DNA of 64,000 nt from Escherichia coli (GTDB lineage: Bacteria; Pseudomonadota; Gammaproteobacteria; Enterobacterales; Enterobacteriaceae), in NCBI RefSeq assembly GCF_009931435.1, contig NZ_CP043414.1. One strand, given 5' to 3'. Positions within the stretch are counted from its first letter, which is position 1. Every line of letters starts with the position of its first letter. Below, piece after piece: positions 15,581 through 16,075 of the stretch. Made by a program: the position numbers and the translations under genes. The notes below the pieces were generated by a model. It worked only from the letters and a program-made list of their open reading frames with translations. It was not told the origin of the DNA and made no database searches.

Positions 15581-15625
15581 TTTTGCGAGGCGTTTTCCAG
15601 ATACGATGTAACAATTGCAGTTATT
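15581..15625. repeat. Copy A of an imperfect ~45 bp direct repeat (partner at 16031-16075)
   Basis: TTTTGCGAGGCGTTTTCCAGATACGATGTAACAATTGCAGTTATT versus copy B TTTTGCGAGACGTTTTCCAGAAATAATAAGAACGTTGCAGTTGTT; about 34 of 45 positions identical by manual alignment. Confidence 0.5.
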
Positions 15626-15707
15626 ATAAGTTCAAGTAAAACAACCTTGTATTAATACCAGAATAAGGACATCTGGTTTTTTATATTCAAGAATAAAAAA
15701 TTTTTTG

Positions 15708-15926
15708 TCATTCCTTATGCTCCTTACACTGATCATCGACACCCACTGTCTCCCCCTTTTGCCTGCCTCCCTTTGCTTTACGCACCGGGAATTGCTGACG
15801 TTCCAGATATTGCTCTACCGCTTCGCGTAAAATTGCAGATCGTGAAACCTTACGCCAGCCCCTAAGCTTGTTCAGCCGTTTAATTGCCTCTTCTGATAAA
15901 TGAAGAAAAACCGTATTCATCACCAT
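15708..15926 (-). CDS. Small ribbon-helix-helix (CopG/Arc-like) protein of the yiiE/yiiF family
   Basis: 72 aa from the ATG preceded by AAGG (MVMNTVFLHLSEEAIKRLNKLRGWRKVSRSAILREAVEQYLERQQ...); ORF track extends to 15953. Only one such paralog is present; I recall K-12 carrying two (yiiE, yiiF). Confidence 0.8.
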   Translation of the reverse strand: MVMNTVFLHLSEEAIKRLNKLRGWRKVSRSAILREAVEQYLERQQFPVRKAKGGRQKGETVGVDDQCKEHKE

Positions 15927-16030
15927 TACCAATACCTTACATATATTACTCATTAATGTATGTGCGAAAATTACGCCGAAAAATCATTTAAAAAAAGCGG
16001 ATTTTTGCATGCTGTTTTGTTTTTGCGAGA

Positions 16031-16075
16031 CGTTTTCCAGAAATAATAAGAACGTTGCAGTTGTTTCATTTGTTA
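16031..16075. repeat. Copy B of the ~45 bp direct repeat (partner at 15581-15625)
   Basis: See copy A; lies at the left edge of the AT-rich insertion. Confidence 0.5.

What the first reader, a model, noticed from the sequence alone, without database searches (positions are those of the whole stretch)
15581..16075. Imperfect 45 bp direct repeat flanking the single remaining RHH gene; apparent loss of the second yiiE/yiiF paralog
Copies at 15581-15625 and 16031-16075 share about 34 of 45 positions (TTTTGCGAG[G/A]CGTTTTCCAGA...TTGCAGTT) and each lies 3' of a minus-strand gene: copy A after the RHH gene, copy B after the island gene. This fits an ancestral tandem duplication unit (RHH gene plus downstream element) in which the second RHH gene body was replaced by the inserted DNA while its 3' element was retained. 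The repeat could also be a conserved regulatory or terminator module.
Basis: partly seen in the sequence, partly recalled or inferred. Interest (0 to 1): 0.45.

Follow-up and report, generated by a model that had tools for sequence, protein, structure and literature searches.

The report
Duplicated Sxy/CRP promoter site, one orphaned
The two repeat copies are the upstream control regions of two neighbouring sister genes (yiiE and yiiF), each with a likely binding site for the competence regulators CRP and Sxy; in this E. coli strain a 657-bp deletion removed yiiF, so one site has no gene left to control.

Summary
The repeat is real: 34 of 45 bases match, and no shuffle exceeded 30.

The locus is E. 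coli fdhE / yiiE / variable gene / fabY. In K-12 the same repeat is 100 nt long and lies 5' of each RHH paralog, yiiE and yiiF. It is therefore an upstream promoter region, not a 3' element.

The gene kept here is yiiE. The missing yiiF lay on the fdhE side, not the island side. yiiF is the VapB antitoxin of a vapBC module that sits next to fdhE in Citrobacter and Klebsiella and is intact in 57 E. coli genomes. A 657-bp deletion, shared by 676 of 5426 E. coli genomes, removed it. What remains is the last 59 nt of vapC and the distal half of the yiiF promoter, which is copy A.

The invariant 21-bp core of both copies (TTT-TGCGA-N6-TTCCA-GA) matches the published E. coli CRP-S consensus exactly. 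It is 16/20 identical to the validated sxy-promoter site. The same motif lies upstream of several unrelated toxin-antitoxin operons.

The sigma-54, terminator, structured-RNA and RHH-operator readings failed. Sxy dependence was not tested.

This is an ordinary feature, and the explanation is only modestly new.

The parts
14563..15492 (+). fdhE, the conserved flank of the locus
   Evidence: ORF list. Annotated as fdhE in K-12 and in the closest strain.
15529..15587 (-). 3' remnant of the vapC (PIN toxin) gene: last 18 codons plus the stop codon
   Evidence: It translates to QNTRDFAGIAGIVTPYEL*, against the VapC C-terminus RNTRDFAGIAGVVTPYEL. It aligns to strain P19_598 (L003) 2370-2557 at 97%. 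vapC is annotated there and has a PIN domain.
15581..15587 (.). Deletion junction: 657 bp missing relative to the yiiE-yiiF-vapC allele
   Evidence: The two BLAST segments against L003 overlap at window 15581-15587. Imperfect microhomology TATTT[C/T]GCG lies at both breakpoints. The same junction is present in 676 of 5426 E. coli genomes.
15581..15625 (-). Repeat copy A: orphaned distal half of the yiiF (vapB) promoter region
   Evidence: It is collinear with the K-12 yiiF upstream region up to the core, then breaks into fdhE-flank sequence.
15581..15601 (.). Core of copy A: putative orphan CRP-S site, TTT-TGCGA-GGCGTT-TTCCA-GA on the + strand
   Evidence: Exact match to TGCGA-N6-TTCCA. The consensus is quoted in PMC6728893. 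The core is invariant in Escherichia, Citrobacter and Klebsiella.
15602..15707 (-). Rest of the yiiE-yiiF intergenic spacer, i.e. the far-upstream part of the former yiiF promoter; includes the weaker paralogous block 15681-15705
   Evidence: Alignments A1 and A2. Repeat family D2.
15708..15926 (-). yiiE, the retained RHH (CopG-family) gene, 72 aa
   Evidence: Pfam RHH_1, E = 1.2e-11. Annotated as yiiE in the 99%-identical strain. 97% identical to K-12 YiiE.
15968..15973 (-). -10-like hexamer TAATTT of the putative Sxy/CRP-dependent yiiE promoter
   Evidence: A TAnnTT hexamer is conserved 47-48 nt after the core in 23 upstream regions from about 10 genera. No transcription start site was mapped, so this is an inference.
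16021..16065 (-). Repeat copy B: distal part of the yiiE promoter region
   Evidence: Homologous to K-12 L001 3591-3690, upstream of yiiE.
16021..16041 (.). Core of copy B: putative CRP-S site of yiiE, TTT-TGCGA-GACGTT-TTCCA-GA on the + strand
   Evidence: exact pattern match; 0.18 matches expected per window; consensus; comparison with the Psxy site.
16451..16491 (-). Terminator-like hairpin downstream of the 617-aa gene. It separates that gene from copy B and is not part of the repeat.
   Evidence: Inverted repeat I2. Fold energy -27.8 kcal/mol, z = -3.8, followed by UUUU.

Best explanation
The 45-bp repeat is what remains visible, in this genome, of a tandem duplication of a promoter together with the 5' part of an RHH gene.

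Ancestral state. In enterobacteria a vapB-vapC (RHH antitoxin, PIN toxin) operon sits next to fdhE. In Escherichia its promoter and the 5' part of vapB were duplicated. This gave yiiE (upstream copy) and yiiF (= vapB).

The two copies here. Copy B is the distal promoter region of yiiE. Copy A is the distal promoter region of yiiF. A 657-bp deletion between short imperfect repeats orphaned copy A. The deletion removed the proximal promoter, yiiF and all but 59 nt of vapC.

Why the core is conserved. The 21-bp core, kept almost unchanged between the copies and across genera, is most likely a CRP-S site: a low-affinity CRP site (TGCGA-N6-TTCCA) that needs the co-activator Sxy/TfoX.

How it would work. 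CRP-cAMP plus Sxy bound about 70 bp upstream of the start site would activate a weak promoter. That promoter has a conserved -10-like TAnnTT hexamer 47-48 nt after the core. This would wire yiiE (and, where present, yiiF-vapC) into the Sxy/competence regulon, as is known for hicAB and reported for higBA and chpSB.

Copy A keeps a perfect site but has lost its -10 and its gene. It is probably an inert relic.

Shown: the paralogy, the polarity, the deletion, the vapBC identity, the motif match and its conservation. Inferred: CRP/Sxy binding, the position of the promoter, and activation.
For: Paralogy and polarity:
- In K-12 the repeat is 100 nt at 73% identity and lies 5' of yiiF and of yiiE.
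- The paralogy is continuous from the upstream region into the coding 5' part: 66% over 281 nt. YiiE and YiiF are 40% identical.

Deletion:
- The window aligns to strain P19_598 on both sides of a 657-bp gap.
- The vapC C-terminus is still readable.
- Among 5426 E. coli genomes, 676 share the junction, 4745 keep yiiF and 57 keep vapC.

Ancestry:
- Citrobacter and Klebsiella have fabY / hydrolase / vapB-vapC / fdhE and no yiiE.
- YiiE homologues were found only in Escherichia.

CRP-S reading:
- Both cores match T4G5C6G7A8-N6-T15T16C17C18A19 exactly. This is the E. coli CRP-S consensus of Sinha 2009 as quoted in PMC6728893, where site orientation was shown not to matter.
- The pattern occurs twice in the window, only at the two copies, against 0.18 expected.
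- The validated K-12 Psxy site TGCGA-GGCTCT-TTCCG is 16/20 identical.
- One half-site has C6 and the other G6, never T6, as reported for enterobacterial CRP-S sites (PMC1635313).
- In alignments obtained through synteny or protein similarity, not through the motif, the core is invariant. The changes fall in the N6 spacer and outside the half-sites, while the flanks are diverged.
- A motif scan of 100,044 species genomes returned about 50 enterobacterial hits among the 120 listed. They included the orthologous sulA-sxy site in three Pantoea species. They also lay upstream of unrelated TA operons in either orientation: a RelE-like gene, a relBE cassette at cybC, and a Gp49/HTH pair.
- TA operons under CRP-Sxy control are established (review PMC11951105).
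- A -10-like hexamer is conserved at a fixed distance from the core.
Against: - No expression or binding data were available to me. I could not read Sinha et al. 2009 to see whether yiiE or yiiF respond to Sxy.
- No transcription start site is known, so the position of about -70 is inferred.
- At the relBE cassette, the obvious TATAAT promoter would place the site near -48, which is not a classical CRP position.
- I could not recognise the published CRP-S site in the K-12 hicAB upstream region by eye. My reading of the motif therefore rests on the quoted consensus and on one validated site.
- The ten specified half-site bases alone would occur about nine times per genome by chance. The argument depends on conservation and context.
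- yiiE lies in H-NS-bound DNA and rises 2.5-fold on SlyA overproduction (PMC5797941). Other regulators therefore also act here.
Confidence: 0.72

Rival explanations
1. The core is the autoregulatory operator bound by the RHH proteins themselves (YiiE, and YiiF/VapB with VapC), as in most type II TA promoters.
For: RHH antitoxins normally repress their own promoters. The element lies upstream of RHH genes. G[G/C]AAA occurs twice, 12 bp apart, within the core (read directly from the sequence).
Against: - The same core lies upstream of operons whose antitoxins are HTH proteins or RelB. It also lies upstream of sxy and of an alpha/beta hydrolase gene.
- The residues of the N-terminal strand that should face the DNA differ completely between YiiE (T/F/H) and YiiF (R/L/D), yet the core is identical upstream of both.
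- The core sits about 95 nt from the start codon. A separate palindrome, ATATAC-N5-GTATAT, at the start codon is a better operator candidate.
Confidence: 0.06
2. The core is a sigma-54 promoter (GG-N10-GC: CTGGAAAACGCCTCGCA) that drives the RHH genes through a long leader.
For: The GG and GC dinucleotides, with the correct spacing, are invariant in all homologues. TCGC at -12 also occurs in glnAp2.
Against: - On a weight matrix built from 50 ChIP-seq sites, the core scores 3.7-6.6 bits. True sites score at least 7.9, with a median of 15.8. The core ranks only 100-300th in the window.
- The same matrix recovers the known fdoI and glnAp2 sites.
- The genome-wide sigma-54 ChIP-seq and genomic SELEX studies list no site at yiiE or yiiF, although K-12 has two perfect copies.
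- The core occurs in both orientations relative to the neighbouring genes.
Confidence: 0.02
3. One reading: a 3' module (terminator or 3'-UTR element) that follows each RHH gene, with copy B left behind by a gene that the island replaced.
For: In window coordinates each copy does lie downstream of some minus-strand gene.
Against: - In K-12 and P19_598 the copies precede yiiF and yiiE, and no copy follows yiiF.
- No terminator-like site, no Rfam match and no consensus structure, -1.2 kcal/mol.
- The island gene has its own hairpin 400 nt away.
- The lost gene lay on the other side.
Confidence: 0.01
4. The repeat is only a decaying relic of the duplication, or the core binds some other conserved factor (for example CRP alone, or a nucleoid protein linked to H-NS/SlyA control) rather than CRP-Sxy.
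For: Common descent by itself explains why two similar copies exist. yiiE is H-NS-associated and SlyA-responsive, and SlyA binds nearby in vitro. No functional data exist for the core.
Against: - Neutral decay cannot explain a 21-bp island of invariance in intergenic DNA that is otherwise diverged across at least 10 genera.
- It also cannot explain the recurrence of the core at unrelated loci.
- The core is only 6/12 identical to the SlyA consensus TTAGCAAGCTAA (my own comparison with the consensus given).
- The half-sites deviate from the canonical CRP site exactly in the way CRP-S sites do.
Confidence: 0.17

Closest known systems
CRP-S site of the E. coli sxy promoter (Jaskolska & Gerdes 2015; Sondberg et al. 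2019, PMC6728893)
   Same: - Asymmetric 22-bp site with one TGCGA half-site and one TTCC[G/A] half-site separated by 6 bp.
- The spacer starts with the same GGC, and the flanks are T/A-rich.
- 16/20 identical.
- It lies roughly 95-130 nt upstream of the start codon.
- Orientation does not matter in the published reporter tests. This fits the two orientations seen here.
   Different: The yiiE/yiiF sites have TTCCA, the consensus base, where Psxy has TTCCG. Their Sxy dependence has not been shown here. One of the two copies in this genome has no downstream gene.
hicAB P1 and other Sxy-induced TA operons of E. coli (higBA, chpSB, hokD) and toxTA of H. influenzae (PMC11951105)
   Same: A type II TA or antitoxin-like operon carrying a CRP-S site upstream. 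There may also be a two-part promoter region: a distal activator-dependent part and a proximal palindrome at the antitoxin start.
   Different: The TA family differs (RHH VapB with PIN VapC). In most E. coli the toxin is gone, leaving orphan antitoxin-like genes. The two-promoter idea is inferred from sequence only.
vapBC type II toxin-antitoxin modules (RHH antitoxin, PIN toxin)
   Same: yiiF overlaps a PIN-domain gene by its stop/start codons in P19_598, E. albertii, Citrobacter and Klebsiella. Distant YiiF homologues in Burkholderia and Rhizobium pair with VapC.
   Different: In the window the module is deleted apart from 59 nt. In K-12 the toxin is degraded and interrupted by REP-like sequence. 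yiiE has lost the toxin-binding C-terminus.

Membership tests
CRP-S (Sxy-dependent CRP) binding site | Sequence T4G5C6G7A8-N6-T15T16C17C18A19 (E. coli consensus) | tested here: met
   Both copies match exactly at 15584-15599 and 16024-16039. These are the only matches in the window, against 0.18 expected. The consensus is taken from PMC6728893.
CRP-S (Sxy-dependent CRP) binding site | Position 6 is C or G in each half-site and never the T of canonical CRP sites (Enterobacteriaceae) | tested here: met
   The half-sites are TGCGA (C6) and, on the other strand, TGGAA (G6). The rule is stated in PMC1635313.
CRP-S (Sxy-dependent CRP) binding site | Resemblance to an experimentally validated site | tested here: met
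   The K-12 Psxy site at L143 15994-16014 is 16/20 identical. The motif scan independently retrieved the orthologous sulA-sxy site in three Pantoea species.
CRP-S (Sxy-dependent CRP) binding site | Half-sites conserved and spacer free to vary among orthologous promoters | tested here: met
   In alignments A2 and A5, built from loci found by protein similarity or synteny, the half-sites are invariant. The variation falls at spacer positions 10, 12 and 13 and at position 20.
CRP-S (Sxy-dependent CRP) binding site | Placed at an activator-compatible distance from a promoter | tested here: inconclusive
   A conserved TAnnTT hexamer 47-48 nt after the core would put the site centre near -70. No start site is mapped. 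The relBE cassette gives about -48 from its TATAAT.
CRP-S (Sxy-dependent CRP) binding site | Transcription requires Sxy, CRP and cAMP; CRP alone binds weakly | not testable with these tools
   This needs expression or binding experiments. The Sxy microarray paper (Sinha et al. 2009) was not available.
Tandem gene duplication (paralogous promoter-plus-gene units) | Collinear similarity running from the upstream region into the coding sequence, in head-to-tail order | tested here: met
   100 nt at 73% upstream in K-12. 281 nt at 66% spanning the upstream region and the 5' coding part. The proteins are 40% identical.
vapBC type II toxin-antitoxin module | Adjacent antitoxin and PIN-toxin genes in one operon | tested here: not met
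   Not met in the window, where only a 59-nt vapC remnant is left. Met in related genomes: P19_598, E. albertii, Citrobacter and Klebsiella.
Intrinsic terminator or 3' element | G+C-rich hairpin followed by a U run, or a conserved RNA structure | tested here: not met
   0 terminator-like sites. Consensus fold -1.2 kcal/mol with 6 pairs. No Rfam family.
Sigma-54 promoter | TGGCAC-N5-TTGCW elements bound by sigma-54 holoenzyme | tested here: not met
   The weight-matrix score is below that of all 50 reference sites. No ChIP-seq or genomic SELEX site is listed at yiiE or yiiF.

The most novel reading that the evidence does not exclude
A near-identical, consensus-perfect CRP-S site travels with a whole set of unrelated chromosomal type II TA cassettes in Enterobacteriaceae. 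These are vapBC/yiiF, its derivative yiiE, a RelE-like/NadS pair beside the hydrolase gene, a relBE cassette inserted at nrdG-cybC, and a Gp49/HTH pair. On this reading, wiring into the Sxy (competence/DNA-uptake) regulon is a general and selected property of these modules. Orphan sites such as copy A would survive as free-standing CRP-Sxy binding sites after the module is lost.
Probability: 0.4. Interest if true: 0.5.

Novelty: new member of a known kind. Interest (0 to 1): 0.3.

Why it matters
- It replaces a vague 'repeat beside an island' with a concrete and testable picture. yiiE and yiiF, two uncharacterised K-12 regulators, derive from a vapBC toxin-antitoxin operon, and each carries a consensus Sxy/CRP site.
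- It predicts that yiiE and yiiF respond to the still poorly understood Sxy regulon of E. coli.
- It adds several TA families to the short list of competence-regulated TA systems.
- It documents a common deletion polymorphism (about 12% of E. coli genomes) that leaves an orphan activator site.
- If the K-12 sites are already in the published Sxy regulon list, which I could not check, only the evolutionary reconstruction is new.

Tried and rejected
- Rfam search of 15300-16800 at a permissive threshold: only noise.
- Sigma-70 promoter and terminator consensus scan: nothing at the repeat.
- Sigma-54 reading: rejected by a weight matrix built from published sites and by published ChIP-seq and SELEX tables.
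- Consensus RNA structure of the upstream regions: none.
- Published start-site data for yiiE/yiiF: the Thomason 2015 paper is not held, and the supplements of three other studies held nothing.
- Attachment-site or cassette-boundary idea for the core: rejected. In the relBE cassette at cybC the core lies 84 nt inside the insert, and the empty site has no core.
- Literature search for the motif string: no paper.
- Viral contig scan: 9 hits, mostly one unrelated phage family; uninformative.
- Locating the published CRP-S site of hicAB P1 by eye: not found.
- From memory I compared the core with the motifs of SlyA, FadR, PurR, MetJ, TyrR, Fis, IHF and LexA. No convincing match; these were leads only.
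- A conserved mini-ORF (MQKSAFFK) downstream of the core: dismissed because it is truncated in K-12 yiiF.
- Pfam, NCBIfam and PDB sequence searches of the 617-aa neighbouring protein: no hit.

Full report
**Observation.** The window region is E. coli DNA: fdoGHI-fdhE (+), a 72-aa RHH gene (-, 15708-15926), a 617-aa gene (-, 16621-18474), then fabY (yiiD) and dtd. The repeat finder reports a 45-nt direct repeat at 15581-15625 and 16021-16065, 76% identical. I counted 34/45 matches. The best 45-mer pair in 100 shuffles of the region averaged 25.9 and never exceeded 30. A second, weaker block (15681-15705 / 16129-16153) belongs to the same similarity.

**What the copies are.** In K-12 MG1655 the order is fdhE, yiiF (-), yiiE (-), a pseudogene fragment, fabY. 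There the repeat is 100 nt long at 73% identity. It lies upstream of yiiF (L001 3153-3252) and upstream of yiiE (3591-3690). The similarity continues into the 5' coding parts: 66% over 281 nt, and YiiE and YiiF are 40% identical. The unit that was duplicated is therefore promoter plus the 5' part of the gene, and the element is a 5' region. The window gene is yiiE: it is annotated as such in a 99%-identical strain and is 97% identical to K-12 YiiE. Copy B is thus the yiiE upstream region, 95 nt from the ATG. Copy A is the upstream region of the missing yiiF. Copy A is collinear with K-12 up to the end of the core and then jumps into the fdhE flank.

**What was lost.**
- Strain P19_598 carries fdhE / vapC (PIN) / an 80-aa CopG gene (= yiiF) / yiiE.
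- The window aligns to it on both sides of a 657-bp gap, with imperfect microhomology TATTT[C/T]GCG at the breakpoints.
- The window still encodes the last 18 residues of VapC at 15529-15587.
- Of 5426 complete E. coli genomes, 4745 keep yiiF, 676 share the window's junction, among them ABU 83972, and only 57 keep vapC.
- K-12 has degraded vapC fragments interrupted by REP-like sequence.
- Citrobacter freundii and Klebsiella pneumoniae have fabY / alpha/beta hydrolase / vapB-vapC / fdhE and no yiiE.
- YiiE homologues were found only in Escherichia.

The ancestral state is therefore a single vapBC operon. yiiE is an Escherichia-specific partial duplicate, and the window allele is a derived deletion. 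The 'island' did not replace the paralog, and K-12 itself keeps an N-terminal remnant of the 617-aa gene. That gene has its own terminator-like hairpin at 16451-16491.

**The conserved core.** I aligned upstream regions obtained through protein similarity or synteny: E. coli, E. albertii, E. fergusonii, Citrobacter and Klebsiella, covering both paralogs. They share an invariant T.TGGAAA..G.CTCGCAAAA within flanks that are otherwise diverged. Four readings were tested and rejected.
- Sigma-54 promoter (GG-N10-GC). The core scores 3.7-6.6 bits on a matrix from 50 ChIP-seq sites, whose minimum is 7.9 and median 15.8. The matrix recovers the fdoI and glnAp2 sites in the window. Published ChIP-seq and SELEX tables list no site at yiiE or yiiF.
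- Terminator or structured RNA. No terminator-like site, no Rfam match and no consensus structure were found.
- RHH operator. The core is unchanged upstream of yiiE and yiiF although their DNA-facing strand residues differ. It also occurs next to operons with non-RHH antitoxins.
- Cassette attachment site. In the relBE cassette the core is internal to the insert, and it is absent from the empty site.

**Recurrence elsewhere.** About 50 of them are from Enterobacterales, which make up a few per cent of the library at most by my rough estimate. The contexts are listed below with distances from the core to the start codon.
- Between the hydrolase gene (86-90 nt) and vapB (91-92 nt) in about 10 genera.
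- 119-124 nt upstream of a RelE-like 103-aa gene. A copy with one mismatch lies upstream of the homologous gene, which is followed by an HTH (NadS) gene, in E. coli ABU 83972 and E. albertii.
- 64 nt upstream of relB, in the opposite orientation, in a relBE cassette at nrdG-cybC. The cassette is present in 455 E. coli genomes and in Kosakonia.
- 107 nt upstream of a Gp49/HTH_37 pair, in the opposite orientation.
- In the sulA-tfoX(sxy) intergenic region of three Pantoea species.

**Identification.** Read on the window + strand, the core is TTT-TGCGA-GGCGTT-TTCCA-GA.
- Sondberg et al. 2019 quote the E. coli CRP-S motif of Sinha et al. 2009 as T4G5C6G7A8-6N-T15T16C17C18A19. They show that both unlike half-sites are needed and that orientation is irrelevant (PMC6728893). 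Both copies match this motif exactly. The pattern occurs nowhere else in the 64-kb window, against 0.18 expected.
- Cameron & Redfield 2006 note that enterobacterial CRP-S half-sites have C6 or G6 and never T6 (PMC1635313). Here one half-site has C6 and the other G6.
- The validated site in the K-12 sxy promoter (tttcggaaagagcctcgcaaa, L143 15994-16014) is 16/20 identical to the core. The Pantoea hits are its orthologues, which makes them an unplanned positive control.
- CRP-Sxy control of TA operons is documented for hicAB P1, higBA, chpSB and hokD in E. coli and for toxTA in H. influenzae (PMC11951105).
- Across 23 distinct vapB/yiiE/yiiF upstream regions only three blocks are conserved. They are the core, a -10-like TAnnTT hexamer starting 47-48 nt after it (which would put the site centre near -70), and a palindrome, TGATATACTGGAGGTATATATG, at the start codon. 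The palindrome is a plausible antitoxin operator or second promoter.

**Model.** Copy B is the Sxy/CRP-dependent activator site of the yiiE promoter. Copy A is the same site of the former yiiF-vapC promoter, now stripped of its -10, its gene and its toxin. Copy A is probably inert. At the native -10 distance it now has TGTAAT (15528-15533), which lacks the critical A at the second position. Other inputs exist: yiiE lies in H-NS-bound DNA, rises 2.5-fold on SlyA overproduction and is a SlyA SELEX target.

**Limits.**
- No binding, expression or start-site data could be consulted. Sinha et al. 2009 is not in the library, and the cap on papers was reached.
- I therefore cannot say whether the K-12 sites are already listed as CRP-S sites.
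- The CRP-S assignment rests on sequence, conservation and context.

**Verdict.** The polarity, the side and the mechanism of loss are wrong. The feature is an ordinary paralogous promoter element, best explained as a known kind of regulatory site. The vapBC ancestry of yiiE/yiiF and the recurrence of the site at other TA cassettes are modestly new. Interest 0.3.

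Noticed in passing
window 16621-18474 (-): A 617-aa ORF with a C-x5-R motif (MGCKSAKDRT) of the kind found in phosphoinositide/tyrosine phosphatases such as SopB/IpgD (the resemblance is from memory). It has no Pfam, NCBIfam or PDB sequence hit. K-12 carries only an N-terminal pseudogene remnant of it (L001 3928-4044), so it may be an ancestral variable gene rather than an insertion.
   Followed up: partly
L005 2501-2719 (E. albertii); L008 and L009 2501-2725 (E. coli): A single hybrid RHH gene: the N-terminal 37 residues are identical to YiiE and the C-terminus is identical to YiiF/VapB. 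In E. albertii it is followed by an intact PIN vapC. The two hybrids resemble different YiiF alleles, which suggests recurrent unequal recombination within the shared LREAV-QYL region.
   Followed up: partly
L001 2600-2872 (K-12); L003 2499-2873: K-12 yiiF is an orphan VapB-type antitoxin. Its vapC partner is reduced to fragments interrupted by REP-like sequence. Only 57 of 5426 complete E. coli genomes keep an intact vapC.
   Followed up: yes
L132 1981-2655 (E. coli strain 7/2, nrdG-cybC): A 675-bp relBE cassette is inserted directly after the nrdG stop codon in 455 E. coli genomes, and a relB homologue with the core at the same distance is present in Kosakonia. It carries the same consensus CRP-S-like core 64 nt upstream of relB, next to a relBE-type operator with repeated GTAATGCAT motifs.
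   Followed up: partly
L004 5652-5672; L005 701-721: A third copy of the core (TCTGGAAAGCGCCTCGCAAAT) lies between the alpha/beta hydrolase gene and a 103-aa RelE-like gene followed by an HTH (NadS) gene in E. coli ABU 83972 and E. albertii. Some Escherichia genomes therefore carry an array of three such sites at this locus.
   Followed up: partly
window 14084-14100 (+) and 39979-39995 (+): The sigma-54 matrix used as a control picked up CTGGCGCGCATTCTGCA inside fdoI, which corresponds to published intragenic site IS47. It also picked up TTGGCACAGATTTCGCT, which is identical to glnAp2. The window therefore also contains glnA.
   Followed up: no
window 15528-15533 (-): After the deletion, the vapC stop-codon region supplies TGTAAT exactly where the native -10 hexamer would lie relative to orphan copy A. 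It lacks the key A at its second position, so activity is doubtful.
   Followed up: no
L041 1324-1344; L129 (garD 3' end); L019 and L055; L053 and L114; L120: Further enterobacterial matches to the core occur in contexts I did not resolve. One lies 5 nt after the garD stop codon and just before a terminator hairpin. Another lies about 300 nt upstream of an uncharacterised 149-aa gene. Another lies between an ABC-F gene and its neighbour.
   Followed up: no
L096 (807-nt contig labelled Bacillus coahuilensis); L102; L130: Short contigs in non-enterobacterial assemblies carry enterobacterial sequence. L096 encodes a 100%-identical YiiE and a YiiF-type gene; L102 and L130 carry vapB/vapC homologues. 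These are probably contaminating contigs in those assemblies.
   Followed up: no
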